Source: the human T2T-CHM13v2.0 reference genome, Homo sapiens. Taken from it: DNA of 64,000 nt. This document shows, one piece after another, positions 1 to 33,462 of this stretch. The notes beneath the pieces were generated by a model that had not been told where the DNA came from, made no database searches, and saw nothing but the letters and a program-made list of their open reading frames with translations. The stretch lies in assembly GCF_009914755.1 (NCBI RefSeq), contig NC_060933.1; one strand, 5' to 3'. The translations under genes were made by a program, and so were the position numbers. Position 1 is the stretch's first letter; every line of letters starts with the position of its first letter.

Positions 1-33
1 GAATGGAATGGAATGGAATGGAATGGAATCAAC

Positions 34-2854: not shown

Positions 2855-2869
2855 GGAATCTTCCGGAAT
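2855..2869 (+). promoter_or_regulatory. Perfect three-unit heat-shock element (representative of ~50 copies in the window)
   Basis: gGAAt-cTTCc-gGAAt matches nGAAnnTTCnnGAAn exactly. HSF1 binding to satellite III in nuclear stress bodies is established, but occupancy of this copy is untested. Confidence 0.6.
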
Positions 2870-6035: not shown

Positions 6036-9000
6036 GTGCAATGGAATGGATTGGAATGGAATGGAATGGAATGGAACAACCCGAATGGAATGGAATGTAA
6101 TGGAGAGTAAGGGAGTTGAAAAGAATCAATCCGAATGTAATGGAATGGAATGGAACGGAATGGAATGGAATGGAATGCAATGCAGTGGAATGGAATCAAC
6201 CCGAGTACAATGGAATGGAATGGAATGGAATGGAATGGAAGGGAATGGAATGGAATGGAATGGAATGCAATGGAATGGAATCTTCCGGAATGGAATGGAA
6301 TGGAATGGAATGGAATGGAATGCAATGGATTCAACTCGATTGCAATGGAATGGAATAGAATGGAATGGAATGGAATGGAATGGAATGGAATGGAATTAAA
6401 CGGAATAGAATGGAATGGAATGGAATGGAACGGAACAGAACGGAACGGAACGGAACGGAGTGGAATGGAATGGAATGGAATTGTATGGAATGGAATGGAA
6501 TTGTACGGAATAGAATGGAATGGAAAGAATTGGAATGGAATGGAATCGAATGGAATGGAATGGAATGGAATGGAATCAACCCGAGTGCAGGGGAATGTAA
6601 TGGAACGGAATGCAATGGAATGGAATCATCCGGAATGGAATGGAATGGAATTGAATGGAATGGAATGGAATGGAATCAACCCGAGTGCAATGGAATGGAG
6701 TGGACTGGAATGGAATGGAATGCAATAACCCGAATGGAATGGAATGTAATGGAGAGTTAGGGAGTTGAATAGAATGAATCCGAATGTAATGGAATGGAAC
6801 GGAATGGAATGGAATGGAATGGAATGGAATGGAATGCAATGGAATGGAATCAACCCGAGTACAATGGAACGGAATGGAATGGAATGGAATGGAATGGAAT
6901 GGAATGGAATGGAATGGAATGGAATCAACCCGAGTGCAATGGAATGGAGAGGAATGGAATGGAATGGAATGGAAACTACCCGAATGGAATGGAATGTAAT
7001 GGAGTGTAAGGGAATTGAATAGAATCAATCCGAATGGAATGGAATGGAACGGAATGTAATGGAATGGAATGGAATGGAATCCACCCGAGTGCAGGGGAAT
7101 GGAATGGAAAGGAATGCAATGGAATGGAATCATCCGGAATGGAATGGAATGGAATGCAATGGAATGGAATGGAATGGAATCAACCCGAGTGCAATGGAAT
7201 GGAGTGAAATGGAATGGAATGGAATGGAAACAACCAGAATGGATTGGAATATAATGGAGTGTAAGGGAATTGAATAGAATAAATCTGAATGTAATGAAAT
7301 GGAATGGAACGGAATGGAATGGAATGGAATGGAATGCAATGGAATGGAATCAACCCGAGTGCAATCGAATGGAATCGAATGGAATGGAATGCAATGGAAT
7401 GGATTGAACTTGAATGGAATGGAAAGAATGGAATCAACACGAGTGGAATGGCATGGATTGGAATGGAATGGAATGGAATCAACCCGAGTACAGGGGAATG
7501 GAATGGAATGGAATGCAATGGAATGGAATCATCCGTAATGGAATGGAAAGGAATGGAATGGAATGGAATGGAATGGAATGGAATGGAATGGAATGGAATC
7601 AACTCGATTGCAATCGAATGGAATGGAATGGAATTAACCCGAATAGAATGGAATGGAATGGAATGGAACGGAACGGAATGGAATGGAATGGAATGGAATG
7701 GAATGGAATGGAACGGAACGGAACGGAATGGAATGGAATGGAATGGAATGGAATCAACGCGAGTGCAGGGGAATGGAATGGAATGGAATGCAATGGAATG
7801 GAATGTTCCGGAATGGAATGGAATGGAATGGAATGGAATGAAATGCAGTGGATTCAACTCGATTGCAATGGAATGGAATAGAATGGAATGGAATGGAATG
7901 GAATGGAATGGAATGGAATTAACCCGAATAGAATGGAATGAAATGGAATGGAACGGAATGGAACGGAATGGAATGGAATGGAATGGAATGGAATGGTATG
8001 GAATGGAATGGAATGTTACGGAATAGAATGGAATGGAACGAATTGTAATGGAATGGAATTGAATGGAATGGAATGGAATGGAATGGAATCAACGCGAGTG
8101 CAGGGGAATGTAATGGAACGGAATGCAATGGAATGGAATCATCCGGAATGGAATGGAATGGAATGGAATCGAAAGGAATCAACCCGAGTGCAATGGAATG
8201 GAGTGGAATGGAATGGAATGGAATGGAATGGAACAACCCGAATGGAATGGAATGTAATGGAGAGTAAGGGAGTTGAATAGAATCAATCCGAATGTAATGG
8301 AATGGAATGCAACGGAATGGAATGGAATGGAATGGAATGGAATGCAATGGAATGGAATCAACCCGAGTACAATGAAATGGAATGGAATGGAATGGAATGG
8401 AATGGAATGGAATGGAATGGAATGGAATGGAATGGAATGCCTTCAAACCGAATGGAATGGAAAGGAATGGAATCAACACGAGAATAATGGAATGGAATGG
8501 AATGGAATGGAATGGAATGGAATGATACGGAATAGAATGGAATGGAACGAAATGGAATGGAATGGAATGGAATGGAATGGAATGGAATGGAATGGAATGG
8601 AATGGAATGGAATTGTTGCGAGTGGAATAGGAAGGAATGTATTCGAGTGGAATGGAAAGGAATGGAATCAACCAGAGTGGAATGGAAGGGAATGGAATGG
8701 ATTGGAAACTAATAGAATGGAATCAACCTGAGTGGAATGGAATGGAAAGGACTGGAATGGAAAGGAATGGAATGGAATGGAATAGAATGGAATGGAATCA
8801 ACGCGAGTGCAGGGGAATGGAATGGAATCGAATGGAATAGAATGGAATGGAATGGAATCAACCCGAGTGCAGGGGAATGTAATGGAAAGGAATGCAATGG
8901 AATGGAATCATCCGGAATGGAATGGAATGGAATGGAATGGAATCAACCCGAGTGCAATGGAATGGAGTGGAATGGAATGGAATGGAATGGAACAATCCGA

Positions 9001-11639
9001 ATGGAATGGAATGTAATGGAGAGTAAGGGAGTTGAAAAGAATCAATCCGAATGTAATGGAATGGAACGGAATGGAATGGAATGGAATGGAATGGAATGCA
9101 ATGGAATGCAATGGAATGGAATCAACCCGAGTACAATGGAATGGAATGGAATGGAATGGAATGGAATGGAATGGAATGATACGGAATAGAATGGAATGGA
9201 ACGCAATGAAATGGAATGGAATGGAATGCAATGGAATGGAATGGAATGGAATGGAATCGTTCCGAGTGGAATAGGAGGGAATGTATTCGAGTGGAATGGA
9301 AAGGAATGGAATCAACAAGAGTGGAATGGAAGGGAATGGAATGGAATGGAAACTAATAGAATGGAATCAACCCGAGTGTAATGGAATGGAAAGGACTGGA
9401 ATAGAATGAAATGGAATCGAATCAACTCGACTGTAATGGAATGGAATGGAATGGAATAGAATGGAATGGAATGGAATGGAATCAACCCGAGTGCAATGGA
9501 ATGGAGTGGAATGGAATGGAATGGAATGGAACAACCCGAATGGAATGGAATGTAATGGAGAGTAAGGGAGTTGAATAGAAGCAATCCGAATGTAATGGAA
9601 TGGAATGGAACGGAATGGAATGGAATGGAATGGAATGGAATGCAATGGAATGGAATCAACCCGAGTTCAATGGAATGGAGAGGAATGGAATGGAATCGAA
9701 TGGAAACTACCCGAATGGAATGTAATGTAATGGAGTGTAAGGGAATTGAATAGAATCAATCCGAATGTAATGGAATGGAATGGAACGGAATGGAATGGAA
9801 AGGAATGGAATGGAATGGAATGGAATGGAATGGAATGGAATCAACTCGATTGCAATCGAATGCAATGGAATGGAATTAACCCGAATAGAATGGAATGGAA
9901 TGGAATGGGACGGAACGGAATGGAATGGAATGGAATGGAATGGAATGGAATGGAACGGAGCGGAATGGAATGGAATGGAATGGAATGGAATCAATGCGAG
10001 TGCAGTGGAATGGAATGGAATGGAATGCAATGGAATGGAATCTTCCGGAATGGAATGGAATGGAATGGAATGGAATGGAATGAAATGCAATGGATTCAAC
10101 TAGATTGCAATGGAATGGAATAGAATGGAATGGAATGGAATGGAATGGAATTAATCCGAATAGAATGGAATGGAATGGAATGGAACGGAATGGAACGGAA
10201 TGGAATGGAATGGAATGGAATGGTATGGAATGGAATGGAATGGTACGGAATAGAATGGAATGGAACGAATTGTAATGGAATGGAATTCAATGGAATGGAA
10301 TGGAATGGAATGGAATCAACGCGAATGCAGGGGAATGTAATGGAACGGAATGCAATGGAATGGAATCATCCGGAATGGAATGGAATGGAATGGAATCAAC
10401 CCGAGTGCAATGGAATGGAGTGGAATGGAATGGAATGCAATGGAACAAACCGAATGGAATGGAATGTAATGGAGAGTAAGGGAGTTGAATAGAATCAAAC
10501 CGAATGTAATGGAATGGAATGCAACGGAATGGAATGGAATGGAATGGAATGGAATGGAATGGAATGGAATGGAATGCAAAGGAATGGAATCAACCCGAGT
10601 GGAATGGCGTGGAATGGAATGCAATGGAATGGAATGGAATGGAATCAACTCGAGTGGAAAGGAATGGAATGGAATGGAAAGGCATGGAATGAAATCAACT
10701 CGAGTGGAATGGAATGGAATGGAATGGAATGGAATGGATTGCAATGGAATGAAATGGAATGGAATGGAATGGAATCAATCATTCCGACTGGAATGGAAGG
10801 GAATGTAATGGAGTGGAAAGAAGGGAATGGAATCAACCGAATTGGAATGCAAGGCAATGGAATGGAATGGAAAGGAATGGAATGGAATCAACTCGATTGG
10901 AATGGAATGGAATGGAATGGAATGGAATGGAATTAACCGGAATAGAATGGAATGCAATGGAATGGAACGGAATGGAATGGAAAGGAAGGGAATGGAATCA
11001 ACACGAGTGCAGGGGAATGCAATGGAATGGAATGCAATGGAATGGAATCATCCGGAATGGAATGGAATGGAATGGAATGGAATCAACTCCATTGCAATGG
11101 AATGGAATGGAATGGAATGGAATAGAATGGAAAGGAATTAACCCGAATAGAATGGAATGCAATAGAATGGAATGGAACGGAACTGAATGGAGTGGAATGG
11201 AATGGAATGGAATCAACCTGAGTGCAGGGGAATGGAATGGAATGGAATGCAATGGAATGGAATCATCCGGAATGGAATGGAATGGAATGGAATGGAATCA
11301 AACCGAGTGCAATGGAATGGAGTGAAATGGAATGGAATGGAATGGAAACAACCAGAATGGATTGGAATATAATGGAGTGTAAGGGAATTGAATAGAATCA
11401 ATCTGAATGTAATGAAATGGAATGGAACGGAATGGAATGGAATGGAATGGAATCGAATGGAATGGAATGGAATGGAATCAAGCAGAGTGCAATGGAATGG
11501 ATTCGAATGGAATGGAATGGAGTGGAATGGATTCAACCCGAATGGAATGGAAAGGAATGGAATCAACGCGAGTGGAATGGCATGGAATGGAATGGAATGG
11601 AATGCAATGGAATGGAATGGAACGGAACGGAATGGAACG

Positions 11640-13440
11640 GAACGGATCGGAGTGGAATGGAATGGAATGGAATTGTATGGAATGGAATGGAATGTTACGG
11701 AATAGAATGGAATGGAAAGAATTGGAATGGAATGGAATCGAATGGAATGGAATGGAATGGAATGGAATCAACCCGAGTGCAGGGGAATGTAATGGAACGG
11801 AATGCAATGGAATGGAATCATCCGGAATGGAATGGAATGGAATGGAATGGAATGGAATAAATCCGAGTGCAATGGAATGGAGTGGAATGGAATGGAATGG
11901 AATGGAACAACCCGAATGGAATGGAATGTAATGGAGAGTAAGGGAGTTGAATAGAATCAATCCGAATGTAATGGAATGGAATGCAACGGAATGGAATGGA
12001 ATGGAATGGAATGGAATGCAATGGAATGGAATCAACCCGAGTACAATGGAATGGAATGGAATGGAATGGAATGGAATGGAATGGAATGGAATGGAAGGGA
12101 ATGCCTTCAAACCGAATGGAATGGAAAGGAATGAAATCAACACGAGTGGAATGGAATGGAATGGAATGGAATGGAATGATACAGAATAGAATGGAATGGA
12201 ACGAAATGGAATGGAATGGAATGGAATGGAATGGAATGGAATGGAATGGAAAGGAATCGTTCCGAGTGGAATAGGAGGGAATGTATTCGAGTGGAATGGA
12301 AAGGAATGGAATCAACCAGAGTGGAATGGAAGGGAATGGAATGGAATGGAAACTAATAGAATGGAATCAATCCGAGTGGAATGGAATGGAAAGGACTGGA
12401 ATGGAAAGGAATGGAATGGAATGGAATGGAATGGAATGGAATCAACGCGAGTGCAGGGGAATGGAATGGAATCGAATGGAATGGAATGGAATGGAATGGA
12501 ATGGAATGGAATCAACCCGAGTGCAGGGGAATGTAATGGAACGGAATGCAATGGAATGGAATCATCCGGAATGGAATGGAATGGAATGGAATGGAATGGA
12601 ATCAACCCGAGTGCAATGGAATGGAGTGGAATGGAATAGAATGGAATGGAACAACCCGAATGGAATGGAATGTAATGGAGAGTAAGTGAGTTGAAAAGAA
12701 TCAATCCGAATGTAATGGAATGGAATGGAACGGAATGGAATGGAACGGAATGGAATGGAATGGAATGGAATGGAATGGAATGCAATGGAAAGGAATCAAC
12801 CCGAGTACAATGGAATGGAATGGAATGGAATGGAATGGAATGGAATGGAATGCAATGGAATGGAATCTTCCGGAATGGAATGGAATGGAATGGAATCGAA
12901 TGCAATGGATTCAACTCGATTGCAATGGAATGGAATAGAATGGAATGGAATGGAATGGAATGGAATTAAACCGAATAGAATGGAATGGAATTGAATGGAA
13001 CGGAACGGAACGGAACGGAACGGAACGGAGTGGAATGGAATGGAATGGAATTGTATGGAATGGAATGGAATGTTACGGAATAGAATGGAATGGAAAGAAT
13101 TGGAATGGAATGGAATCGAATGGAATGGAATGGAATGGAATGGAATCAACCCGAGTGCAGGGGAATGTAATGGAACGGAATGCAATGGAATGGAATCATC
13201 CGGAATGGAATGGAATGGAATGGAATGGAATGGAATAAATCCGAGTGCAATGGAATGGAGTGGAATGGAATGGAATGGAATGGAACAACCCGAATGGAAT
13301 GGAATGTAATGGAGAGTAAGGGAGTTGAATAGAATCAATCCGAATGTAATGGAATGGAATACAACGGAATGGAATGGAATGGAATGGAATGGAATGGAAT
13401 GCAATGGAATGGAATCAACCCGAGTACAATGGAATGGAAT
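11640..13440 (+). repeat. Direct duplication of ~0.4 kb at offset 1378 (~11640-12060 and ~13020-13440)
   Basis: GGAATAAATCCGAG at 11854 and 13232, with TGTTACGG and GGAAAGAATTGG in the same order in both copies. Confidence 0.75.
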
Positions 13441-16400
13441 GGAATGGAATGGAATGGAATGGAATCAATGCGAGTGCAGGGGAATGGAATGGAATGGAAT
13501 GCAATGGAATGGAATCTTCCGGAATGGAATGGAATGGAATGGAATGGAATGAAATGCAATGGATTCAACTCGATTGCAATGGAATGGAATAGAATGGAAT
13601 GGAATGGAATGGAATGGAATTAACACGAATAGAATGGAATGGAATGGAATGGAATGGAATGGAATGGAATCAACTCGATTGCAATCGAATGGAATGGAAT
13701 GGAATTAACCCGAATAAAATGGAACGGAATAGAACGGAACGGAACGGAAAGGAATGGAATGGAATGGAATGGAACGGAATGGAAGGGAATGGAATGGAAT
13801 AGAATGGAATGGAATGGAATGGAATCAACGCGAGTGCAGGGGAATGGAATGGAATGGAATGCAATGGAATGGAATCTTCTGGAATGGAATGGAATGGAAT
13901 GGAATGGAATGCAATGGATTCAACTCGATTGCAATAGAATGGAATAGAATGGAATGGAATGGAATGGAATTAACCCGAATAGATTGGAATGGAATGGAAT
14001 GGAACGGAACGGAACGGAACGGAATGGAATGGAATGGAATGGAATGGAATGGAATGGAATTGTATGGAATGGAATGGAATGGTACGGAATAGAAAGGAAT
14101 GGAAAGAATTGGAATGGAATGGAATCGAATGGAATGGAATGGAATGGAATGGAACGGAACGGAACGGAACGGAATGGAATGGAATGGAATGGAATGGAAT
14201 GGAACGGAAAGGAATGGAATGGAATGGAATGGAATGGAATGGAATCTTCCGGAATGGAATGGAATGGAATGGAATGGAACGGAATGGAATGCAATGGATT
14301 CAACTCGATTGCAATGGAATGGAATAGAATGGAATGGAATGGAATGGAATGGAATAGAATGGAATGGAATGGAATGGAATGGAATTAACCCGAATAGAAT
14401 GGAATGGAATGAAATGGAACGGAACGGAACGGAACGGAATGGAATGGAATGGAATGGAATGGAATGGAATGGAATTGTATGGAATTGAATGGAATGGTAC
14501 GGAATAGAATGGAATGGAATGGAATGGAATGGAATGGAATGGAATGGAATGGAATGGAATCAACCCGAGTGCAATGGAATGGAGTGGAATGGAATGGAAT
14601 GGAATGGAACAACCCGAATGGAATGTAATGTAATGGAGAGTAAGGGAGTTGAATAGAATCAATCCGAAAGTAATGGAATGGAACGGTATGGAATGGAATG
14701 GAATGGAATGGAATGGAATGGAATGGAATGGAATGGAATGCAATGGAATGGAATCAACCCGAGTACAATGGAATGGAATGGAATGGAATGCAATGGAATA
14801 TAATGGAATGGAATGGAATGGAATCAACCCGAGTGCAATGGAATGGAGAGGAATGGAATGGAATGGAATGGAAACTACCCGAATGGAATGGAATGTAATG
14901 GAGTGTAAGGGAATTGAATAGAATCAATCCGAATGGAATGGAATGGAATGGAACGGAATGTAATGGAATGGAATGGATTGGAATGGAATCAACCCGAGTG
15001 CAGGGGAATGGAATGGAATGGAATGCAATGGAATGGAATCATCCGGAATGGAATGGAATGGAATGGAATGGAATGGAATGGAATGGAATGGAATCAACCC
15101 GAGTGCAATGAAATGGAGAGGAATGGAATGGAATGGAATGGAAACTACCCGATTGGAATGTAATGTAATGGAGTGTAAGGGAATTGAATAGAATGAATCC
15201 GAATGGAATGGAATGGAATGGAACAGAATGGAACGGAATGCAATGGAATGGAATGGAATGGAATGGAATGGAATGGAATGGAATGGAATGGTATGGAATG
15301 GAATGGAATGGTACGGAATAGAATGGAAAGGAAAGAATTGGAATGGAATGGAATGGAATGGAATGGAATGGAATGGAATGGAATGGAATGGAATCAACCC
15401 GAGTGCAGGGGAATGTAATGGAACGGAATGCAATGGAATGGAATCATCCGGAATGGAATGGAAAGGAATGGAATGGAATGGAATGGAATGGAATGGAATA
15501 GAATGGAATAGAATGGAATCAACTCGATTGCAATCGAATGGAATGGAATGGAATTAACCCGAATAGAATGGAATGGAATGGAATGGAACGGAACGGAATT
15601 GAATGGAATGGAATGGAATGGAACGGAAAGGAATGGAATGGAATGGAATGGAATGGAATGGAATGGAATGGAATGGAATCAACGCGAGTGCAGGGGAATG
15701 GAATGGAATGGAATGGAATGGAATGGAATGGAATGGAATCAACCCGAGTGCAATGGAATGGAGTGGAATGCAATGGAATGGAATGGAACAAGCCGAATGG
15801 AATGGAATGTAATGGAGAGTAAGGGAGTTGAAAAGAATCAATCCGAATGTAATGGAATGGAATGGAACGGAATAGAATGGAATGGAATGGAATGGAATGG
15901 AATGGAATGCAATGGAATGTAATCAACCCGAGTGCAATCGAATGGAATCGAATGGAATGGAATGCAATGGAATGGATTCAACTTGAATGGAATGGAAAGA
16001 ATGGAATCAACACGAGTGGAATGGCATGGATTGGAATGGAATGGAATGGAATCAACCCAAGTACAGGGGAATGGAATGGAATGGAATGCAATGGAATGGA
16101 ATCATCCGTAATGGAATGGAAAGGAATGGAATGGAATGGAATGGAATGGAATGGAATGGATTGGAATCAACTCGATTGTAATCAAATGGAATGGAATGGA
16201 ATTAACCCCAATAGAATGGAATGGAATGGAATGGAACGGAACGGAATGGAAGGGAATGGAATGGAATGCAATGCAATGGAACGGAAAGGAATGGAATGGA
16301 ATGGAATGGAATGGAATGGAAAGGAATGGAATGGATTCAACGCGAGTGCAGGGGAATGGAATGGAATGGAATGCAATGGAATGGAATCTTCCGGAATGGA

Positions 16401-17139
16401 TTGGAATGGAATGGAATGGAATGCAATGGATTCAACTCGATTGCAATGGAGTGGAATAGAATGGAATGGAATGGAATGGATTTAACCCGAATAGAATGGA
16501 ATGGAATGGAATGGAACGGAACGGAACGGAACGGAACGGAATGGAATGGAATGGAAAGGAATGGAATGGAATTGTATGGAATGGAATGGAATGGTACGGA
16601 ATAGAATGGAATGGAAAGAATTGGAATGGAATGGAATCGAATGGAATGATATGGAATGGAATGGAATGGAATGGAATCAACCCGAGTGCAGGCGAATTTA
16701 ATGGAACGGAATGCAATGGAATGGAATCATCCGGAATGGAATGGAATGGAATGGAATGGATTGGAATCAACCCGAGTGCAATGCAATGGAGTGGAATGGA
16801 ATGGAATGGAATGGAACAGCACGAATGGAATGGAACGTAATGGAGAGTAAGGGAGTTGAATAGAATCAACCCGAATGTAATGGAATGGAATGGAACGGAA
16901 TGGAATGGAATGGAATGCAATGGAATGGAATCAACCCGAGTACAATGGAATGGAATGGAATGGAATGGAATGGAATGCAATATAATGGAATCAACCCGAG
17001 TGCAATCGAATGGAATCGAATGGAATGGAATGCAATGGAATGGATTCAACTTGAATGGAATGGAAAGAATGGAATCAACACGAGTGGAATGGCATGGAAT
17101 GGAATGGAATGGAATGGAATCAACCCGAGTACAGGAGAA

Positions 17140-17720
17140 TGGAATGGAATGGAATGCAATGGAATGGAATCATTAGTAATGGAATGGAAAGGAATGGAAT
17201 GGAATGGAATGGAATGGAATGGAATGGAATGAACTCGATTGCAATCGAATGGAATGGAATGGAATTAACCCGAATAGAATGGAATGGAATGGAATGGAAC
17301 GGAACGGAATGGAATGGAATGGAATGGAATGGAACGGAACGGAACGGAATGGAATGGCATGGAATGGAATTGAATGGAATGGAATCAACGCGAGTGCAGG
17401 GGAATGGAATGGAATGGAATGGAATGGAATGCAATGGAATGGAATCATTAGTAATGGAATGGAAAGGAATGGAATGGAATGGAATGGAATGGAATGGAAT
17501 GGAATGAACTCGATTGCAATCGAATGGAATGGAATGGAATTAACCCGAATAGAATGGAATGGAATGGAATGGAACGGAACGGAATGGAATGGAATGGAAT
17601 GGAATGGAACGGAACGGAACGGAATGGAATGGCATGGAATGGAATTGAATGGAATGGAATCAACGCGAGTGCAGGGGAATGGAATGGAATGGAATGGAAT
17701 GGAATGCAATGGAATGGAAT
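17140..17720 (+). repeat. 275-bp tandem duplication
   Basis: Rare variant CATTAGTAAT at 17171 and 17446, each followed by GAATGAACTCG. ORF offset 17204/17479. Confidence 0.92.
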
Positions 17721-20184
17721 CTTCCGGAATGGAATGGAATGGAATGGAATGGAATGCAATGGATTCAACTCGATTGCAATGGAATGGAATAGAATGGAAT
17801 GGAATGGAATGGAATGGATTTAACCCTAATAGAATGGAATGGAATGGAATGGAATGGAACGGAATAGAACGGAATGGAAAGGAATGGAATGGAATGCAAT
17901 GGAATGGAATGCTATGGAATGGAATGGAATGGTACGGAATAGAATGGAATGGAACGAATTGGAATGGAATGGAATCGAATGGAATGGAATGGAATGGAAT
18001 GGAATCAACGCGATTGCAGGGGAATGTAATAGAACGGAATGCAATGGAATGGAATCATCCGGAATGGAATGGAATGGAATGGAATGGAATGGAATGCAAT
18101 GGAATGGAATCAACCCGAGTGCAATGGAATGGAGTGGAATGGAATGGAATGGAATGGAAGAACCCGAATGGAATGGAATGTAATGGAGAGTAAGGGAGTT
18201 AAAAAGAATCAATCCGAAAGTAATGGAATGGAATGGAACGGAATGGAATGGAATGGAATGGAATGGAATGGAATGGAATGGAATGGAATCAACCCGAGTG
18301 CAATCGAATGGAATCGAATGGAATGGAATGCAATGGAATGGATTCAACTTGAATGGAATGGAAAGAATGGAATCAACACGAGTGGAATGCCATAGATTGC
18401 AATGGAATGGAATGGAATAAACCTGAGTACAGGGGAATGGAATGGAATGGAAAGCAATGGAATGGCATGATCCGAAATGGAATGGAAAGGAATGGAATGG
18501 AATTGAATGGGATGGAATGGCTTCAAACCGAATGGAATGGAAAGGAATGGAATCAACACGAGTGGAATGGAATGGAATGGAATGGAATGGAATGGAATGG
18601 AATGGAATGGTATGGAATAGAATGGAATGGAACGGAATGGAATGGAATAGAATGCAATGGAATGGAATGGAATTGTTCCGAGGGAATAGGAGGGAATGTA
18701 TTCGAGTGGAATGGAAAGGAATGGAATCAACCAGAGTGGAATGGAAGGGAATAGAATGGAATGGAAACTAATAGAATGGAATCAACCCGAGTGGAATGGA
18801 ATGGAAAGGAATGGAATGGAATGTAATGGAATGGAATGGAATATAATGGAATGGAATGGAATGGAATGGAATCAACTCGATTGTAATGGAATGGAATGGA
18901 ATGGAATGGAATGGAATGGAATGGAATGGAATGGAATTAACCCGAATACAATGGAATGGAATGCAATGGAACGGAATGGAGTGGAATGGAATGGAATCAA
19001 CCCGAGTGCAGGGGAATGGAATGGAATGGAATGCAATGGAATGGAATCATCCGGAATGGAATGGAATGGAATGGAATGCAATGCAATGGAATCAACTCGA
19101 TTGCAATGGAATGGAATGGAAAGGAATAGAATGGAATCAACCCGAGTGGAATGGAATGGAAAGGACTGGAATGGAGTGGAATGGAATGCAATGGAATGGA
19201 ATTAACTCGATTGGAATGGAATGGAAAGGAATGGAATGGAATTAACCCGAATAGAATGGAATGGAATGGAATGGAACGGAATGGAATAGAATGGAATGGA
19301 ATGGAATGGAATGGAATGGAATCAACCCGAGTGCAGGGGAATGGAATGGAATGGAATGCAATGGAATGGAATCATCCGGAACGGAATGGAATGGAATGTA
19401 ATGGAATCAACTCGATTGCAATGGAATGGAATGGAATGGAATGGAATGGAATGGAATGGAATTCACCCGAATAGAATGGAATGGAATGGAATGGAAAGGA
19501 ATGGAAGGGAAGGGAATGGAATGTAATCAACCCGAGTGCAGGGGAATGGAATGGAATGGAATGCAATGGAATGGAATCATCCGGAATGGAATGGAATTGA
19601 ATGGAATGGAATGGAATGGAATGGAATGGAATAGAATGCAATGGAATGGAATCAACCCGAGTACAATGGAATGGAATGGAATGGAATGGAATGGAGTGGA
19701 ATGGAATGGAATTGAATGGAATGGAATGCCTTCAAACTGAATGGAATGGAAAGGAATGTAATCAACACGAGTGGAATGGAATCGAATGCAATGGAATGGA
19801 ATGGAATGGAATGGTACGGAATAGAATGGAATGGAACGAAATGGAATGGAATGGAATGGAATGGAATGGAATGGAATGGAATGGAATGGAATGGAATCGT
19901 TCCGAGTGGAATAGGAGGGAATGTATTCGAGTGAAATGGAAAGGAATGGAATCAACCAGAGTGCAATGGAAAGGAATGGAATGGAATGGAAACTAATAGA
20001 ATGGAATCAACCCGAGTGGAATGGAATGGAAAGGACTAGAATGGAATGGAATGGAATGGAATGGAATGGAATGGAATCAACTCCATTGTAATGGAATGGA
20101 ATGGAATGGAAAGGAATGGAATGGAATGCAATGGAATTAACCCGAATACAATGAAAAGGAATGGAATGGAACGGAATGCAAAGC

Positions 20185-20212
20185 AATGGAATCAACTCGG
20201 GTTGATTCCATT
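20185..20212. other. Strand-inversion junction of the satellite array
   Basis: AATGGAATCAAC-TCGG-GTTGATTCCATT: 12-bp perfect inverted arms (20185-20196, 20201-20212) around a 4-nt spacer. Array orientation flips here with no foreign insert. Confidence 0.97.
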
Positions 20213-23200
20213 CCCTTCTTTCCATTCCATTCCATTCCATTCCATTCCGTTCCATTCCATTCCATTACATTCGGATTGATTCTATTCAATTCCCTTACAC
20301 TCCATTACATTCCATTCCATTCGGGTAGTTTCCACTCCATTCCATTCCCCTCCTCTCCATTCCATTGCACTCGGGTTGATTCCATTCCATTGCATTCCAT
20401 TCCATTCCATTCAATTCCATTCCGTTCCATTCCATTCCATTACATTCGGATTGATTCTATTCAACTCCCTTACTCTCCATTACATTCGATTCCATTCAGG
20501 TTGTTCCATTCCATTCCATTCCATTCCACTCCACTCCATTGCACTCGAGTTGATTCCATTCCATTCCATTCCATTCCGGAAGATTCCATTCCATTCCATT
20601 CCATTCCATTCCATTCCATTCCATTCCGTTCCGTTCCGTTCCGTTCCATTCCATTCCATTCCATTCTATTCGGGTTAATTCCATTCCATTCCATTCGATT
20701 GCAATCGAGTTGATTCCATTCCATTCCATTCCATTCCATTCCATTCCATTCCTTTCCTTTCCATTACGGATGATTCCATTCCATTGCATTCCATTCCATT
20801 CCATTCCCCTGTACTCGGGTTGATTCCATTCCATTCCATTCCAATCCATGCCATTCCACTCGTGTTGATTCCATTCTTTCCATTCCATTCAAGTTGAATC
20901 CATTCCATTGCATTCCATTCCATTCGATTCCATTCGATTGCACTCGGGTTGATTCCATTCCATTACATTCCATTCCATCCCATTTCATTCCATTCCATTC
21001 CTTTCCATTCCATTCCATTCCATTCCATGCGATTGCAATCGAGTTGATTCCATTCCATTCCTTTCCATTCCATTCCATTGCCTTGCATTCCACTCGGGTT
21101 GATTCCATTCCCTTCTTTCCACTCCATTACATTCCCTTCCATTCCACTCGGAATGATTGATTCCATTCCATTCCATTCCATTTCATTCCATTGCAATCCA
21201 TTCCAATCCATTCCATTATATTCCATTCCACTCGAGTTGATTTCATTCCATTCCTTTCCATTCCATTCCATTCCTTTCCACTCGAGTTGATTCCGTTCCA
21301 TTCCATTCCTTTGCATTCCATTCCATGCCATTCCACTCGGGTTGATTCCATTCCATTCCATTCCATTCCATTCCATTGCATTCCATTCCATTCCTTTCCC
21401 CTGCACTCGGGTTGATTCCATTCCTTTCCATTCCATTTAATTCCATTCCATGCCATTCCCTTCCATTCCAATCCATTCCATTCCACTGCATTCTATTCCA
21501 CTGCAATCGACTTGATTCCATTCCATTCCATTCTATTCCATTCCATTCCATTCCATTCCATTCCATTCCATTCCATTTTGTTCCAATCCATTCTATTCCG
21601 AACTATTCCATTCCATTCCATTCCATTCCATTGCATTCCATTCCATGCCATTCCACTCAGGTTGATTCCATTCCATTCCATTCCATTCGATTCCATTCCA
21701 TTCCATTCCATTCCGTTGCACTCCATTTCATTACATTCAGATTGATTCTATTCAATTCCCTAACACTCCATTATATTCCAATCCATTCTGGTTGTTTCCA
21801 TTCCATTCCATTCCATTTCACTCCATTCCATTGCACTGGGTTTGATTCCATTCCATTCCATTCCATTCCATTCCGGATGATTCCATTCCATTGCATTCCA
21901 TTCCATTCCATTCCCCTGCACTCAGGTTGATTCCATTCCATTCCATTCCAATCCATTCGGTTCCGTTCCATTCCATTCTATTGCATTCCATTCTATACGG
22001 GTTAATTCCATTCCATTCTATTCCATTCCATTCCACTCCATTCCATTCCATTGCAATGGAGTTGATTCCATTCCATTCCATTTCATTCCGGATGATTCCA
22101 TTCCATTGCATTCCATTCCATTCCATTCCCCTGCACTCGTGTTGATTCCATTACCTTCTATTCCATTCCATTCCGTTCCATTCCATTGCATTCCATTCTA
22201 TTGCAATCGAGTTGATTCCATTCCATTCCTTTCCATCCCATTCCATTGCCTTGCATTCCAATCGGGTTGATTCCATTCCCTTCTTTCCACTCCATTACAT
22301 TCCCTTCCATTCCACTCGGAATGATTGATTCCATTCCATTCCATTCCATTTCATTCCATTGCAATCCATTCCAATCCATTCCATTCCATTCCACTCGAGT
22401 TGATTTCATTCCATTCCTTTCCATTCCATTCCATTCCTTTCCACTCGAGTTGATTTCTTTCCATTCCATTCCATTGCATTCCATTCCATGCCATTCCACT
22501 CAGGTTGATTCCATTCCTTTGCATTCCATTCCATTCCATTGCATTCCATTCCATTCCATTCCGTTGCATTCCATTCCATTACATTCCGATTGATTCTATT
22601 CAACTCCCTTACTCTCCATTACATTCCATTCCATTCGGGTTGTTCCATTCCATTCCATTCCATTCCACTCCATTCCATTGCACTCGGGTTGATTCCATTC
22701 CATTCCATTCCATTCCATTCCATTCCATTCCATTCCATTCCGGATGATTCCATTCCATTGCATTCCGTTCCATTACATTCCCCTGCGCTCGCGTTGATTC
22801 CATTCCATTCCATTCCATTCCATTCAATTCCATTCCATTACAATTCGTTCCATTCCATTCTACTCCGTACCATTCCATTCCATTCCATACCATTCCATTC
22901 CGTTCCATTCCATTCCATTGCATTCCATTCCATTCCATTCCATTCCGTTCCATTCCATTCCATTCCATTCTATTCAGGTTAATCCCATTCCATTCCATTC
23001 CATTCTATTCGGATTAATTCCATTCCATGCCATTCCATTCCGTTCTATTCCATTCCATTGCAATCGAGTTGAATCCATTGCATTTCATTCCATTCCATTC
23101 CATTCCATTCCATTCCGGAAGTTTCCATTCCATTGTATTCCATTCCATTCCATTCAATTCCATTCCGTTCCATTCCATTCCATTACATTCGTATTGATTC

Positions 23201-23869
23201 TATTCAACTCCCTTAGTCTCCATTACATTCCATTCCATTCGGGTTGTTCCATTCCATTCCATTCCATTCCACTCCATTCCATTGCACTCGGGTTTATTCC
23301 CTACCATTCCATTCCATCCCATTCAATTCCATTCCATTCCGGAAGATTCCATTCCATTGCATTCCATTCCATTCCATTCCGCTGCACTCGCGTTGATTCC
23401 ATTTCATTCCATTCCATTCCATTCCATTCCGTTCCGTTCCATTCCATTCCATTCCATTCCATTCCATTCCGTTCCGTTCCATTCCATTCCATTCCATTCT
23501 ATTCGGGTTAATTCCATTCCATTCCATTCGATTGCAATCGAGTTGATTCCATTCCATTCCATTCCATTCCATTCCATTCCATTCCATTGCATTCCTTTCC
23601 ATTCCATTACGGATGATGCCATTCCATTGCATTCCATTCCATTCCATTCCCCTGTACTCGGGTTGATTCCATTCCACTCCATTCCAATCCATGCCATTCC
23701 ACTCGTGTTGATTCCATTCTTTCCATTCCATTCAAGTTGAATCCATTCCATTGCATTCCATTCCATTCGATTCCATTCGATTGCACTCGGGTTGATTCCA
23801 TTCCATTGCATTCCATTCCATTCCATTCCATTCCATTCCATTCCATTCCGTTCCATTCCATTCCATTAC

Positions 23870-26800
23870 ATTCGGATTGATTCTATTCAATTCCCTTACA
23901 CTCCATTACATTCCATTCCATTCGGGTAGTTTCCATTCCATTCCATTCCATTCCTCTCCATTCCATTGCACTCGGGTTGATGCCATTCCATTGCATTCCA
24001 TTGCATTCCATTCAATTCCATTCCATTCCATTACATTCGGATTGATTCTATTCAACTCCCTAACTCTCCATTACATTCCATTCCATTCGGGTTGTTCCAT
24101 TCCATTCCATTCCATTCCACTCCATTCCATTGCACTCGGGTTGATTCCATTCCATTCCATTCCATTCCATTCCGGAAGATTCCATTCCATTGCATTCCAT
24201 TACATTCCATTACCCTGCACTCGCGTTGATTCCATTCCATTCCATTCCATTCCATTCCGTTCCATTCCATTCCTTTCCGTTCCATTCCATTCCATTCCAT
24301 TCCGTTCCGTTCCGTTCCGTTCCATTCCATTCCATTCTATTCGGGTTAATTCCATTCCATTCCATTCGATTGCAATCGAATTGATTCCATTCCATTCCAT
24401 TCCATTCCATTCCATTCCATTCCATTCCATTCCTTTCCATTCCATTACGGATGATTCCATTCCATTGCATTCCATTCCATTCCATTCCCCTGTACTCGGG
24501 TTGATTCCATTCCATTCCATTCCAATCCATGCCATTCCACTCGTGTTGATTCCATTCTTTCCATTCCATTCAAGTTGAATCCATTCCATTGCATTCCATT
24601 CCATTCGATTCCATTCGATTGCACTCGGGTTGATTCCATGGCATTGCATTCCATTCCATTCCATTCCATTCCATTCCATTGCTTTCCATTCCATTCCATT
24701 CGGATTCATTCTATTCAATTCCCTTACACTCCATTACATTCCATTCCATTCGTGTAGTTTCCATTCCATTCCATTCCATTCCTCTCCATTCCATTGCACT
24801 CGGGTTGATTCCATTCCATTCCATTCCATTCCATTCCATTCCATTCCATTCCATTCCATTCCGGATGATTCCATTCCATTGAATTCCATTCCATTCCATT
24901 CCCCTGCACTTAGGTTGATTCCATTCCATTCCATTCCATTCCTTTCTGTTCCATTCAATTCCATTCCATTCCATTCTATTCGTGTTAATTCCATTCCATT
25001 CTATTCCATTCCATTCCATTGAAATCGAGTTGATTCCATTCCATTCCATTCCATTCCATTCCATTCCATTCCATTCCGGATGATTCCATTCCATTGCATT
25101 CCATTCCATTCCATTCCCCTGCACTCAGGTTGATTCCATTCCATTCCATTCCATTACATTCCATTCCATTCCGTCCCATTTCATTCTATTCGGGTTAATT
25201 CCATTCCATTCCATTCCACTCCATTCCAGTCCTTTCCATTCCATTCCACTCGGGTTGATTCCATTCTATTCCTTTCAATTCCATTCCATTCCATTGCAAT
25301 CGAGTTGATTCCATTCGAGTTGAATCCATTCCATTCCATTCCATTCAATTCCATTGCACACGGGTTCATTCCATTCCATTCCATTCCATTCCGTTCCATT
25401 CCATTCCATTCCATTTCATTCCATTCCATTCTATTCCGTACCATTCCATTCCATCCCATTCCATTCTGTTCCATTCCATGCCATTACACTCGGGTTGATT
25501 CCATTCCTTTCCATTCCATTCTTATTGAATCCATTCCATTCCAATCCATTCGAATCCATTCCATTGCACTCGGGTTGATTCCATTCCATTCCATTCCATT
25601 CCATTCCATTCCATTCCATTACATTCGGATTGATTCTATTCAATTCCCTTACACTCCATTACATTCCATTCCATTCGGGATGTTTCCATTCCATTCCATT
25701 CCATTCCACTCCATTCCATTGCATCAGGTTGATTGCATTCCATTCCATTCCATTCCATTCCGGATGATTCCATTCCATTGCATTCCATTCCATTCCATTC
25801 CATTCCCCTGCACTCGGGTTGATTCCATTCGATTCCATTCCATTCCATTCCATTCCATTCCGTTCCATTCCATTCCATTGCATTCTATTCCGGTTAATTC
25901 CATTCCATTCCATTCCATTCCATTCCATTCCATTCCATTCCATTCCATTCCATTCCATTGCCATCGAGTTGATTCCATTCCATTCCATTCCATTCCGTTC
26001 CGGATGATTCCATTCCATTCCATTCCATTCCCCTGCAGTCGGGTTGATTCCATTCCATTCCATTCCATTCCATTCCATTCCATTCCATTGCATTCCATTC
26101 TGTTCCATTCCATTCCATTCCATTCCATTCTATTCAGGTTAATTCCATTCCATTCCATTCCATTCCATTCCATTCCAATCGAGTTGATTCCATTCCATTC
26201 CATTCCATTCCACTACATTCCAGTCCTTTCCATTCCATTACACTCGGGTTGATTCCATTCTATTCCATTCTATTCCATTCCATTCCATTGCAATCGAGTT
26301 GATTCCATTGCTTTGCATTCCATTCCATTCCATTCCATTCCGGATGATTCCATTCCATTGCATTCCATTCCATTCCATTCCCCTGCACTCGGGTTGATTC
26401 CATTCCATTCCATTCCATTACATTCCATTCCATTCCGTCCCATTTCATTCTATTCGGGTTAATTCCATTCCATTCCATTCCACTCCATTCCAGTCCTTTC
26501 CATTCCATTCCACTCGGGTTGATTCCATTCTATTCCTTTCAATTCCATTCCATTCCATTGCAATCGAGTTGATTCCATTCGAGTTGAATCCATTCCATTC
26601 CATTCCATTCCATTCCATTGCACACGGGTTCATTCCATTCCATTCCATTCCATTCCGTTCCATTCCATTCCATTCCATTTCATTCCATTCCATTCTATTC
26701 CGTACCATTCCATTCCATCCCATTCCCTTCTGTTCCATTCCATGCCATTACACTCGGGTTGATTCCATTCCTTTCCATTCCATTCTTATTGAATCCATTC

Positions 26801-29800
26801 CATTCCAATCCATTCGAATCCATTCCATTGCACTCGGGTTGATTCCATTCCATTCCATTCCATTCCATTCCATTCCATTCCATTCCATTACATTCGGATT
26901 GATTCTATTCAATTCCCTTACACTCCATTACATTCCATTCCATTCGGGATGTTTCCATTCCATTCCATTCCATTCCACTCCATTCCATTGCATCAGGTTG
27001 ATTGCATTCCATTCCATTCCATTCCATTCCGGATGATTCCATTCCATTGCATTCCATTCCATTCCATTCCATTCCCCTGCACTCGGGTTGATTCCATTCG
27101 ATTCCATTCCATTCCATTCCATTCCATTCCGTTCCATTCCATTCCATTGCATTCTATTCCGGTTAATTCCATTCCATTCCATTCGATTCCATTCCATTCC
27201 ATTCCATTCCATTCCATTCCATTCCATTGCCATCGAGTTGATTCCATTCCATTCCATTCCATTCCGTTCCGGATGATTCCATTCCATTCCATTCCATTCC
27301 CCTGCAGTCGGGTTGATTCCATTCCATTCCATTCCATTCCATTCCATTCCATTCCATTCCATTCCATTGCATTCCATTCCGTTCCATTCCATTCCATTCC
27401 ATTCCATTCTATTCAGGTTAATTCCATTCCATTCCATTCCATTCCATTCCATTCCAATCGAGTTGATTCCATTCCATTCCATTCCATTCCACTACATTCC
27501 AGTCCTTTCCATTCCATTACACTCGGGTTGATTCCATTCTATTCCATTCTATTCCATTCCATTCCATTGCAATCGAGTTGATTCCATTGCTTTGCATTCC
27601 ATTCCATTCCATTCCATTCCGGATGATTCCATTCCATTGCATTCCATTCCATTCCATTCCCCTGCACTCGGGTTGATTCCATTCCATTCCACTCCATTCC
27701 TTTCCATTCCATTCCATTCCATTGTATTCGGGTTAATTCCATTCCATTCCATTCCATTCCATTCCATTCCAATACATTCCTTTACAATCGAGTTGATTCC
27801 ATTCCATTCCATTCCATTCCATTCCACTCCAGTCCTTTCCATTCCATTCCACTCGGGTTGATTCCATTCTATTAGTTTCCATTCCATTCCATTCCCTTCC
27901 ATTCCACTCTGATTGATTCCATTCCTTTCCATTCCACTCGAATACATTCCCACCTATTCCACTCGGAACGATTCCATTCCATTCCATTCCATTCCATTCC
28001 ATTCCATTCCATTCCATTCCAGTTCGTTCCATTCCATTCTATTCCGTACCATTCCTTTCCATTCCATTCCTTTCCACTCGTGTTGATTCCATTCCTTTCC
28101 ATTCCATTCGGTTTGAAGGCATTCCATTCCATTCAATTCCATTCCATTCCATTCCATTCCATTCCATTCCATTCCATTCCATTCCCCTGTACTCGGGTTG
28201 ATTCCAATCCATTCCATTCCAATCCATGCCATTCCACTCGTGTTGATTCCGTTCTTTCCATTCCATTCAAGTTGAATCCATTCCATTGCATTCCATTCCA
28301 TTCGATTCCATTCGATTGCACTCGGGTTGATTCCATTCCATTGCATTCCATTCCATTCCATTCCGTTCCATTCCATTCCATTACATTCGGATTGATTCTA
28401 TTCAATTCCCTTACACTCCATTACATTCCATTCCATTCGGGTAGTTTCCATTCCATTCCATTCCATTCCTCTCCATTCCATTGAACTCGGGTTGATTCCA
28501 TTCCATTGCATTCCATTCCATTCCATTCCATTCCATTCCGTTCCATTCCATTCCATTACATTCGGATTGATTCTATTCAACTCCCTTACTCTCCATTACA
28601 TTCCGTTCCATTCGGGTTGTTCCATTCCATTCCATTCCATTCCACTCCATTCCATTGCACTCGGGTTGATTCCATTCCATTCCATTCCATTCCATTCCAT
28701 TCCATTCCATTCCATTCCGTTCCGGAAGATTCCATTCCATTGCATTCCATTCCATTCCATTCCCCTGCACTCGCGTTGATTCCATTCCATTCCATTTGAT
28801 TCCATTCCATTCCATTCCATTCCATTCCGGAAGATTCCATTCCATTGCATTCCATTCCATTCCATTCCCCTGCACTCGCGTTGATTCCATTCCATTCCAT
28901 TCCATTCCATTCCATTCCGTTCCGTTCCGTTCCATTCCATTCCAATCCATTCCATTCCATTCCATTCCATTCCGTTCCGTTCCATTCCATTCCATTCCAT
29001 TCTATTTGGGTTAATTCCATTCCATTCCATTGGATTGCAATCGAGTTGATTCCATTCCATTCCATTCCATTCCATTCCATTCCATTCCATTCCTTTCCAT
29101 TCCATTACGGGTGACTCCATTCCATTGCATTCCATTCCATTCCATTCCCCTGTACTCGGGTTGATTCCATTCCATTCCATTCCAATCCATGCCATTCCAC
29201 TCGTGTTGATTCCATTCTTTCCATTCCATTCAAGTTGAATCCATTCCATTGCATTGCATTCCATTCGATTCCATTCGATTGCACTCGGGTTCATTCCATT
29301 CCATTCCATTCCATTCCATTCCATTCCGTTCCGTTCCATTCCATTCCATTCTATTCGGATTGATTCTATTCAATTCCCTTACACTCCATTACATTCCATT
29401 CCATTCGGGTAGTTTCCATTCCATTCCATTCCATTCCTCTCCATTCCATTGCACTCGGGTTGATTCCATTCAATTGCATTCCATTCCATTCCATTCAATT
29501 CCATTCCGTTCCATTCCATTCCATTACATTCGGAATGATTCTATTCAACTCCCTTACTCTCCATTACATTCCATTCCATTCGGGTTGTTCCATTCCATTC
29601 CATTCCATTCCACTCCATTCCATTGCACTCGGGTTGATTCCATTCCATTCCATTCCATTCCATTCCGGAAGATTCCATTCCATTGCATTCCATTACATTC
29701 CATTACCCTGCACTCGCGTTGATTCCATTCCATTCCATTCCATTCCATTCCGTTCCATTCCATTCCTTTCCGTTCCATTCCATTCCATTCCATTCCATTC

Positions 29801-32300
29801 CATTCCGTTCCGTTCCGTTCCGTTCCATTCCATTCCATTCTATTCGGGTTAATTCCATTCCATTCCATTCGATTGCAATCGAGTTGATTCCATTCCATTC
29901 CATTCCATTCCATTCCATTCCATTCCATTCCTTTCCATTCCATTACGGATGATTCCATTCCATTGCATTCCATTCCATTCCATTCCCCTGTACTCGGGTT
30001 GATTCCATTCCATTCCATTCCAATCCATGCCATTCCACTCGTGTTGATTCCATTCTTTCCATTCCATTCAAGTTGAATCCATTCCATTGCATTCCATTCC
30101 ATTCGATTCCATTCGATTGCACTCGGGTTGATTCCATGGCATTGCATTCCATTCCATTCCATTCCATTCCATTCCATTCCTTTCCATTCCATTCCATTCG
30201 GATTCATTCTATTCAATTCCCTTACACTCCATTACATTCCATTCCATTCGTGTAGTTTCCATTCCATTCCATTCCATTCCTCTCCATTCCATTGCACTCG
30301 GGTTGATTCCATTCCATTCCATTCCATTCCATTCCATTCCATTCCATTCCATTCCGGATGATTCCATTCCATTGAATTCCATTCCATTCCATTCCCCTGC
30401 ACTTAGGTTGATTCCATTCCATTCCATTCCATTCCTTTCTGTTCCATTCAATTCCATTCCATTCCATTCTATTCGTGTTAATTCCATTCCATTCTATTCC
30501 ATTCCATTCCATTGAAATCGAGTTGATTCCATTCCATTCCATTCCATTCCATTCCATTCCATTCCGGATGATTCCATTCCATTGCATTCCATTCCATTCC
30601 ATTCCCCTGCACTCGGGTTGATTCCATTCCATTCCATTCCATTCCATTCCATTCCATTCCATTCCACTCGGGTTGATTCCATTCTATTCCTTTCAATTCC
30701 ATTCCATTCCATTGCAATCGAGTTGATTCCATTCGAGTTGAATCCATTCCATTCCATTCCATTCCATTGCACACGGGTTCATTCCATTCCATTCCATTCC
30801 ATTCCGTTCCATTCCATTCCATTCCATTTCATTCCATTCCATTCTATTCCGTACCATTCCATTCCATCCCATTCCATTCTGTTCCATTCCATGCCATTAC
30901 ACTCGGGTTGATTCCATTCCTTTCCATTACATTCTTATTGAATCCATTCCATTCCAATCCATTCGAATCCATTCCATTGCACTCGGGTTGATTCCATTCC
31001 ATTCCATTCCATTCCATTCCATTCCATTCCATTACATTCGGATTGATTCTATTCAATTCCCTTACACTCCATTACATTCCATTCCATTCGGGATGTTTCC
31101 ATTCCATTCCATTCCATTCCACTCCATTCCATTGCATCAGGTTGATTGCATTCCATTCCATTCCATTCCATTCCGGATGATTCCATTCCATTGCATTCCA
31201 TTCCATTCCATTCCCCTGCACTCGGGTTGATTCCATTCCATTCCATTCCATTCCATTCCATTCCATTCCATTCCGTTCCATTCCATTCCATTGCATTCTA
31301 TTCCGGTTAATTCCATTCCATTCCATTCGATTCCATTCCATTCCATTGCATTCCATTCCATTGCCATCGAGTTGATTCCATTCCATTCCATTCCATTCCG
31401 TTCCGGATGATTCCATTCCATTCCATTCCATTCCATTCCATTCCCCTGCAGTCGGGTTGATTCCATTCCATTCCATTCCATTCCATTCCATTCCATTCCA
31501 TTGCATTCCATTCCGTTCCATTCCATTCCATTCCATTCCATTCTATTCAGGTTAATTCCATTCCATTCCATTCCATTCCATTCCATTCCAATCGAGTTGA
31601 TTCCATTCCATTCCATTCCATTCCACTACATTCCAGTCCTTTCCATTCCATTACACTCGGGTTGATTCCATTCTATTCCATTCTATTCCATTCCATTCCA
31701 TTGCAATCCAGTTGATTCCATTGCTTTGCATTCCATTCCATTCCATTCCATTCCGGATGATGCCATTCCATTGCATTCCATTCCATTCCATTCCCCTGCA
31801 CTCGGGTTGATTCCATTCCATTCCACTCCATTCCTTTCCATTCCATTCCATTCCATTGTATTCGGGTTAATTCCATTCCATTCCATTCCATTCCATTCCA
31901 TTCCAATACATTCCTTTACAATCGAGTTGATTCCATTCCATTCCATTCCATTCCATTCCACTCCAGTCCTTTCCATTCCATTCCACTCGGGTTGATTCCA
32001 TTCTATTAGTTTCCATTCCATTCCATTCCCTTCCATTCCACTCTGGTTGATTCCATTCCTTTCCATTCCACTCGAATACATTCCCTCCTATTCCACTCGG
32101 AACGATTCCATTCCATTCCATTCCATTCCATTCCATTGCATTCCATTCCATTCCATTCCAGTTAGTTCCATTCCATTCTATTCCGTACCATTCCTTTCCA
32201 TTCCATTCCTTTCCACTCGTGTTGATTCCATTCATTTCCATTCCATTCGGTTTGAAGGCATTCCATTCCATTCAATTCCATTCCATTCCATTCCATTCCA
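23870..32300 (-). repeat. ~5.5-kb-period duplication (~23870-28170 and ~29360-32300); the first copy contains the 1.27-kb duplication
   Basis: ORF offsets 24445/29943 (5498), 25354/30767 (5413) and 27517/31651 (4134). Shared markers ATTACCCTGCAC, CCATGGCATTG, CACTTAGGTTG, AATACATTCCTTTACAATCG. Confidence 0.85.
25080..27660 (-). repeat. ~1.27-kb tandem duplication
   Basis: ORF offsets 25181/26445 (1264) and 25636/26905 (1269). Shared markers CCGTCCCATTTC, GCACACGGGTTC, CTTATTGAATC, GCATCAGGTTG. Confidence 0.92.
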
Positions 32301-33462
32301 TTCCATTCCATTCCATTCTTTTCCATTCCATTGCAATCGAGTTGAATCCATTGCCTTTCATTCCATTCCATTCCATTACATTACATTCCGGAAGATTCCA
32401 TTCCATTGCATTCCATTCCATTCCATTCCCCTGCACTCGCGTTGATTCCATTCCATTCCATTCCATTCCATTCAATTCCATTCCATTCCATTCCTTTCTA
32501 TTCCATTACGGATGACTCCATTCCATTGCATTCCATTCCATTCCATTCCCCTGTACTCGGGTTGATTCCATTCCATTCCATTCCACTCCATTCGGTTCCG
32601 TTGCATTCCATTCTATTGCATTCCATTCTATTCGGGTTAATTCCATTCCATTCTATTCCATTCCATTCCATTCCATTCCATTGCAATGGAGTTGATTCCA
32701 TTCCCTTCCATTCCATTCCGGATGATTCCATTCCATTGCATTCCATTCCATTCCATTCCCCTGCACTCGTGTTGATTCCATTCCCTTCCATTCCATTCCA
32801 TTCCGTTCCATTCCCTTCCTTTCCGTTCTATTCCGGTTAATTCCATTCCATTCCATTCCATTCCATTCCATTCCACTCCATTGCAATCGAGTTGATTCCA
32901 TTCCATTCCTTTCCATTCCATTCCATTGCCTTGCATTGCACTCGGGTTGATTCCATTCCTTTCTTCCCACTCCATTACATTCCCTTCCATTCCACTCGGA
33001 ATGATTGATTCCATTCCATTCCATTCCATTTCATTCCATTGCAATCCATTCCAATCCATTCCGTTCCATTCCATTCCACTCGAGTTGACTTCATTCCATT
33101 CCTTTCCATTCCATTCCATTCCTTTCCACTCGAGTTGATTCCATTCCATTCCATTCCATTGCATTCCATTCTATGCCATTCCACTCGGGTTGATTCCATT
33201 CCTTTGCATTCCATTCCATTCCATTGCATTCCATTCCATTTCATTCCGTTGCATTCCATTCCATTACATTCGGATTGATTCTATTCAACTCCCTTACTGT
33301 CCATTACATTCCATTCCATTCGGCTTGTTCCATTCCATTCCATTCCATTCCACTCCATTGCATTGCACTCGGGTTGATTCCATTCCACTCCATTCCATTC
33401 CATTCCATTCCGGATGATTCCATTCCATTGCATTCCGTTCCATTACATTCCCCTGCACTCGC

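What the first reader, a model, noticed from the sequence alone, without database searches (positions are those of the whole stretch)
20185..20212. Clean satellite inversion joined through 5-bp microhomology between two different cassette types
Seen: the left arm ends in the CAACTCG(ATTG) cassette and the right arm begins in the reverse complement of the CAACCCGAGT cassette, (C)ACTCGGGTTG. ACTCG (20195-20199) can be read as part of either arm. The product is a 12-bp perfect hairpin with a TCGG loop. Known: strand inversions have been reported within HSat3 arrays in complete human assemblies. Inference: the cassettes give an otherwise strand-asymmetric array built-in inverted microhomology, so inversions may be steered to cassettes rather than occurring at random.
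Basis: partly seen in the sequence, partly recalled or inferred. Interest (0 to 1): 0.75.

Follow-up and report, generated by a model that had tools for sequence, protein, structure and literature searches.

The report
One inversion join copied 53 times
This strand flip in the giant chromosome 9 satellite is joined at a shared 5-base stretch and recurs 53 times in the array; it likely arose once and was then copied, and just five such joins make up most of the array's roughly 200 flips.

Summary
Observation confirmed. The window's only strand switch is at 20195-20199, and both unrearranged parents survive elsewhere on chr9 (AATCA-ACTCG-ATTG and TTCC-ACTCG-GGTTG), fixing a 5-bp microhomology between two cassette types.

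It is not a one-off event. The exact 28-mer occurs 42 times, 53 with variants, all in the chr9 HSat3B5 array; all 20 copies examined with flanks share a private 100-bp core. I catalogued 212 switches in 10 junction classes. Five classes (85, 53, 31, 20, 11 copies) give 200 of them, and polarity alternates at 198 of 211 neighbour pairs. Each major class sits in both orientations and all arm pairings, and 28 of this class remain after removing megabase duplications.

Best reading: rare microhomology joins, then copying and flipping by homologous recombination. Cassette steering is only weakly supported: 6 of 6 resolved classes touch a cassette (p 0.02-0.05), and summed microhomology is not enriched (p 0.14-0.21). 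The hairpin is a by-product of a shared cassette prefix. The switches and the large duplication are published; I did not find the few-classes picture in nine searches, but key supplements were closed.

The parts
1..20194 (+). Left arm: HSat3B5 satellite, GGAAT strand on +; the block runs about 117 kb back to a tail-to-tail junction at chr9:55,144,765
   Evidence: subfamily marker 24-mer on the - strand here
20150..20196 (+). Private left flank (47-mer) shared by junction copies and by three unrearranged parent loci
20185..20212 (.). Head-to-head junction class H1; 28-mer with 12-bp stem and TCGG loop; 42 exact copies, 53 with variants
20195..20199 (.). 5-bp microhomology ACTCG shared by both parents
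20200..20225 (-). Private right flank: reverse complement of a CAACCCGAGT cassette; 10 unrearranged parent copies on chr9
20200..64000 (-). Right arm: inverted HSat3B5 block, ending 5.6 kb past the window at a tail-to-tail junction (chr9:55,311,646; block 49.5 kb)
21087..21120 (-). In-window unrearranged cassette of the right-parent type
4603..4632 (+). In-window unrearranged cassette of the left-parent type (one of several)

Best explanation
The junction joins two ordinary HSat3B5 cassettes head to head at a shared 5-bp ACTCG and occurs 53 times in the chr9 array; it likely formed once by microhomology-mediated joining and was then likely copied by duplications and flipped by homologous recombination between oppositely oriented satellite blocks. 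Shown: the overlap, both parents, the copy number, shared private flanks, both orientations, all arm pairings with the commonest opposite junction, and megabase duplications. Inferred: a single origin, and end joining or template switching as the first step (these two cannot be told apart here). Also inferred: once opposite blocks exist, a crossover between them inverts the segment and carries the old junction along without making new junction sequence. That would explain why 212 catalogued switches fall into 10 classes.
For: 42 exact copies, all chr9 51.07-75.68 Mb, control 0; 9 point variants and 2 more. 20 of 20 copies examined share a 100-bp core, 0-2 differences from the window copy, mean pairwise 2.1 (9 of the 20 were picked for having variants). 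Shared flanks run about 800 bp in most copies but break down within about 100 bp on the right in L004, L005, L008 and L009, as later crossovers predict. Catalogue of 212 switches: T1 85, H1 53, H3 31, H2 20, T2 11, T3 6, four minor classes 6. Arm pairings H1 x T1 are 15, 15, 16, 24 (uniform p 0.35), and 8, 7, 6, 13 without duplicated blocks; a single inversion would give one fixed pairing. Junction strings repeat over 34, 31, 12 and (inverted) 10 junctions. Published: switch number tracks array length, r = 0.90 (bioRxiv 2026.07.22.740206).
Against: Only 20 of 53 copies were examined with flanks. 13 neighbour pairs share a polarity, so classes are missing, and orientation data imply hidden pairs near 64.1-64.2 Mb; the five-class share (94% of catalogued, 89% if each gap hides one) could fall further. 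No reciprocal junction of H1 was found among the 102 tail-to-tail sites catalogued, so the founding event may not be a simple balanced inversion. Unrearranged parents with private flanks could partly be products of later crossovers rather than relics. One haploid assembly, no reads. Gene conversion could also spread a junction.
Confidence: 0.8

Rival explanations
1. Cassette steering as a general rule for founding events: new inverted joins form preferentially at CCG-bearing cassettes because they supply inverted microhomology or are fragile. This is compatible with the best explanation; it concerns only where the about 10 founders arose.
For: 6 of 6 resolved classes touch a cassette (null 0.53-0.61, p 0.02-0.05) and 4-5 of 6 lie within 2 bp of a CpG (null 0.23-0.25, p 0.005-0.03). 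By eye, T3 and H7 also break at CCG/CGG cassettes.
Against: n = 6, the CpG test was chosen after seeing the data, and three thresholds were tried. Summed microhomology p 0.14-0.21. H2, H3 and H4 show 0-2 bp and only H1 and T2 join cassette to cassette. With permissive parent choice, 15.5% of random joins look like 5 bp or more. H6 and H8 look like plain or blunt joins by eye.
Confidence: 0.4
2. The 53 copies formed independently at the same cassette pair (a hotspot).
For: Both cassette types are very common: the shared 12-base prefix occurs 2,058 times in 340 kb.
Against: All 20 copies examined carry the same rare flank variants on both sides. The private left 47-mer is unrearranged at only 3 loci and the right flank at 10, among thousands of available cassettes.
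Confidence: 0.04
3. Fold-back (hairpin-capped break or inverted template switch) made the palindrome.
For: Perfect 12-bp stem, stable fold. Class H3 does show mirrored arms.
Against: H1 arms are not mirror images: 80-83% identity over 3 kb, 7-8% substitutions with about 30-40 gaps, at background level. The stem follows from the prefix both cassettes share.
Confidence: 0.04
4. Assembly chimera or artefact.
For: No reads were available here.
Against: Copies carry independent point variants, alternate in polarity with other classes at 198 of 211 pairs, and similar switch densities are reported in hundreds of assemblies.
Confidence: 0.02

Closest known systems
HSat3B5 strand-switch breakpoints on chr9 (Altemose et al., bioRxiv 2021.07.12.452052; passages seen)
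   Same: This is one of the 'over 200 inversion breakpoints' reported for the chr9 HSat3B5 and beta-satellite arrays; my count of 212 on chr9 fits.
   Different: The passages seen count breakpoints but do not group them by junction sequence or give microhomology.
Strand switches as by-products of array expansion (bioRxiv 2026.07.22.740206; 2026.09.03.749043; passages seen)
   Same: Switch number scales with array length (r = 0.90); about 129 switches per haplotype.
   Different: Described as randomly placed, stochastic by-products; here they resolve into a few copied junction sequences.
[quoted passage not shown]
   Same: The junction strings recover a duplication of about 54.6-60.8 Mb at 65.2-71.4 Mb, likely this one, that includes this window.
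   Different: It explains only part of the copies: 125 of 212 switches and 28 of 53 H1 copies remain after dropping second copies of three blocks.
Microhomology-mediated end joining / template switching (recalled)
   Same: Clean join with a short shared tract and no insertion.
   Different: Pathway not testable from sequence; other classes show only 0-2 bp.

Membership tests
HSat3B5 | (CATTC)n-derived array carrying the subfamily marker 24-mer | tested here: met
   60 exact matches in the window, 0 in shuffles; marker from the table in PMC4022460
HSat3B5 | Location in the chr9 pericentromeric block | tested here: met
   Window at C9:55.24-55.31 Mb
Microhomology-mediated junction | Short tract shared by both parents, no insertion | tested here: met
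   ACTCG with both parents found
Microhomology-mediated junction | Overlap longer than chance | tested here: inconclusive
   0.13% with known parents, but the site was chosen after the fact; across 6 classes p 0.14-0.21
Microhomology-mediated junction | Dependence on polymerase theta or a replication template switch | not testable with these tools
   Needs experiment
Fold-back inversion | Arms are colinear mirror images across a short spacer | tested here: not met
   H1 arms at background similarity
Balanced inversion | Reciprocal junction present | tested here: inconclusive
   Not among 102 catalogued tail-to-tail sites; 10 gaps unresolved
Recurrent breakpoint hotspot | Same breakpoint in unrelated flanking haplotypes | tested here: not met
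   20 of 20 copies share a private core

The most novel reading that the evidence does not exclude
The largest satellite array in the human genome owes its 200-plus strand switches to about ten founding joins, five of them dominant and formed mostly at CCG cassettes. These joins behave as heritable units shuffled by recombination between inverted blocks, so five short k-mers give a readable barcode of 9qh structure and history, and this has not been described.
Probability: 0.4. Interest if true: 0.7.

Novelty: new variant of a known kind. Interest (0 to 1): 0.5.

Why it matters
It changes what the chr9 HSat3 'inversions' measure: mostly copies of a few junctions rather than hundreds of breakage events. 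That explains why switch number scales with array length, and it warns that breakpoint statistics on this array are pseudo-replicated. Five short junction words would give landmarks in a 27-Mb array that cannot be aligned, usable for dating duplications, checking assemblies and counting copies in short reads across populations. The single junction and its hairpin are ordinary by themselves.

Tried and rejected
1) My own idea that the left parent was a CAACCCGAG cassette, giving only a 2-bp overlap (suggested by cassette order): rejected by exact parents. 2) Fold-back origin of H1: rejected. 3) T1 and H2 as a reciprocal pair: the flanks did not line up in held sequence; not supported. 4) Permissive parent inference gave unstable overlaps (H2 0, H4 -2, T2 7) and an inflated null; replaced, where H1 and H2 also fail to resolve at the strictest threshold. 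5) repeat finder on the window was swamped by the pentamer. 6) Generic gap patterns missed H1, H2 and most H3 copies and were cut at 100 rows. 7) Four switches outside 51.0-76.45 Mb (one at 48.7 Mb, three at 76.54-76.57 Mb) were dropped before the count of 212. 8) Flanks of T3 and H5-H8 were not obtained, so these were judged only from short matched strings and left out of the statistics. 9) The journal version of the centromere paper was not held and bioRxiv supplements are closed; a junction clustering could be there. PMC11526998 and bioRxiv 2026.05.15.725544 (passages) had nothing on junction classes.

Full report
Observation. The window is HSat3B5 (marker 24-mer 60 times, 0 in shuffles; marker from PMC4022460, passages seen). 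It has one strand switch, GGAAT to ATTCC, at 20195-20199. The 28-mer, the 12-bp stem and the TCGG loop are as described.

Parents. Cassette order in the window first suggested a different left parent. A genome search with the private left 47-mer gave 206 matches at up to 3 mismatches, 100 of them listed. I fetched the 19 listed matches with at most 2 mismatches that were not exact junction copies, plus one with 3. Three exact and seven two-mismatch loci are unrearranged and continue ACTCG-ATTG; nine are junction copies with point changes; one is an unrelated cassette. For the right side, 10 of 49 matches are unrearranged, TTCC-ACTCG-GGTTG, and 39 are junction type.

Copy number. The exact 28-mer occurs 42 times, all on chr9 between 51.07 and 75.68 Mb, with 0 for the reversed control. 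With 9 variants and 2 further hits (flanks not seen) the class, H1, has 53 members, 19 on + and 34 on -. All 20 copies examined share a 100-bp core with 0-2 differences from the window copy. Flanks stay near-identical for about 800 bp in most, but diverge within about 100 bp on the right in four. I infer one origin followed by copying and later crossovers.

The array as a whole. Head-to-head and tail-to-tail switches must alternate, so gaps pointed to missing types. Counts: T1 85, H3 31 (plus one variant), H2 20, T2 11, T3 6, H4 1, H5 2, H6 2, H7 1. That is 212 switches in 51.0-76.45 Mb, after dropping four outside this range. Five classes give 200 (94%); 198 of 211 neighbour pairs alternate; 13 gaps remain (89% if each hides one, lower if they hide pairs). 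Strings of class and orientation repeat: 34 junctions at 54.61-60.21 Mb recur at 65.18-70.85 Mb, with 12 more beyond; 31 at 52.13-54.58 recur at 61.04-63.39; 10 at 64.99-65.89 recur inverted at 71.57-72.44. The window's junction has twins at 65.84 Mb (+) and 71.62 Mb (-). Dropping second copies leaves 125 switches, 28 of them H1. All four arm pairings between H1 and T1 occur at similar rates (15, 15, 16, 24), likewise for H2 and H3. I infer that junctions are shuffled by recombination within their arms.

Steering test. With true parents known, random inverted joins have 5 bp or more of overlap in 0.13% of cases, nearly all at cassettes, and 36% touch a cassette. Parent inference inflates these figures: 15.5% and 64% under a permissive rule. 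Under stricter rules applied equally to 6 real classes and about 650 simulated joins per threshold, overlaps at the loosest threshold were H1 5, H2 2, H3 2, H4 2, T1 4, T2 6. Cassette contact was 6 of 6 (p 0.052, 0.031, 0.021), CpG proximity 5, 4 and 4 of 6 (p 0.005, 0.029, 0.032; post hoc), and summed overlap p 0.16, 0.14, 0.21. Only H1 and T2 join cassette to cassette. None of the six breaks in TTCCGGAA. Steering is plausible but not shown.

Hairpin. Both cassettes begin with the same 12 bases (2,058 copies in 340 kb, followed by CCGAG 914 times and TCGAT 400 times), so any such join gives this stem. H1 arms are not mirror images. H3 is different: its arms align from 121 bp out at 4.1% substitution with shared rare variants (score 1426; background mean 1089, sd 160, maximum 1720 of 60 pairs), suggestive of a fold-back.

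Mechanism. Shown: overlap, parents, copies, orientation mix, duplications. Inferred: a single microhomology-mediated join, amplified by duplication and reoriented by homologous recombination between inverted blocks, which moves old junctions without making new ones. Confidence 0.8.

Literature. Over 200 breakpoints in chr9 HSat3B5 and beta satellite are reported (bioRxiv 2021.07.12.452052, passages). Switch number correlates with array length and is called a stochastic by-product of expansion (bioRxiv 2026.07.22.740206, passages); about 129 switches per haplotype (bioRxiv 2026.09.03.749043, passages). A multi-megabase duplication in CHM13 is known (bioRxiv 2021.05.26.445798, passages). Nine searches (listings only, except the papers named) showed no grouping by junction sequence. 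The journal version and supplements of the centromere paper could not be seen and may contain it.

Verdict. Real junction, correct anatomy, partly right interpretation. The noteworthy result is the collapse of the array's switches into a few copied junctions. New variant of a known kind; interest 0.5.

Noticed in passing
L038:3565-3587 and L047:1981-2003 (chr9 52.96 and 52.94 Mb): Junction class H3 (31 copies) has mirrored arms across a spacer of about 120 bp with shared rare variants, suggestive of a fold-back origin, unlike H1.
   Followed up: partly
chr9 52.13-54.58 Mb vs 61.04-63.39 Mb; 64.99-65.89 Mb vs 71.57-72.44 Mb: A second megabase direct duplication and an inverted one of about 0.9 Mb, read from junction strings alone; sequence identity not checked.
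   Followed up: partly
L036:1496-1515 (class T1) and L049:8393-8409 (class H2): Both join the CGG end of a cassette to a plain pentamer through GG; reciprocity was not supported by the flanks.
   Followed up: partly
G000 C7 58.73-59.04 Mb: The chr7 satellite also shows repeated junction words of both polarities in both orientations, hinting that the same copying holds there.
   Followed up: no
L037:186-1341 (chr9 70.854-70.855 Mb): Shortest inverted block seen, 1.1 kb between a T1 and an H2 junction, next to a T1 repeated 9.5 kb away.
   Followed up: no
L065:1500-1524 (chr9 64.84 Mb): Singleton junction H4; its right arm carries variants like those of the H3 left arm, so it may derive from that locality.
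   Followed up: no
chr9 48.7-52.1 Mb and beyond 76.45 Mb: The array ends hold few or none of the major junction classes and have their own singleton switches, suggesting older flanks around an expanded core.
   Followed up: no
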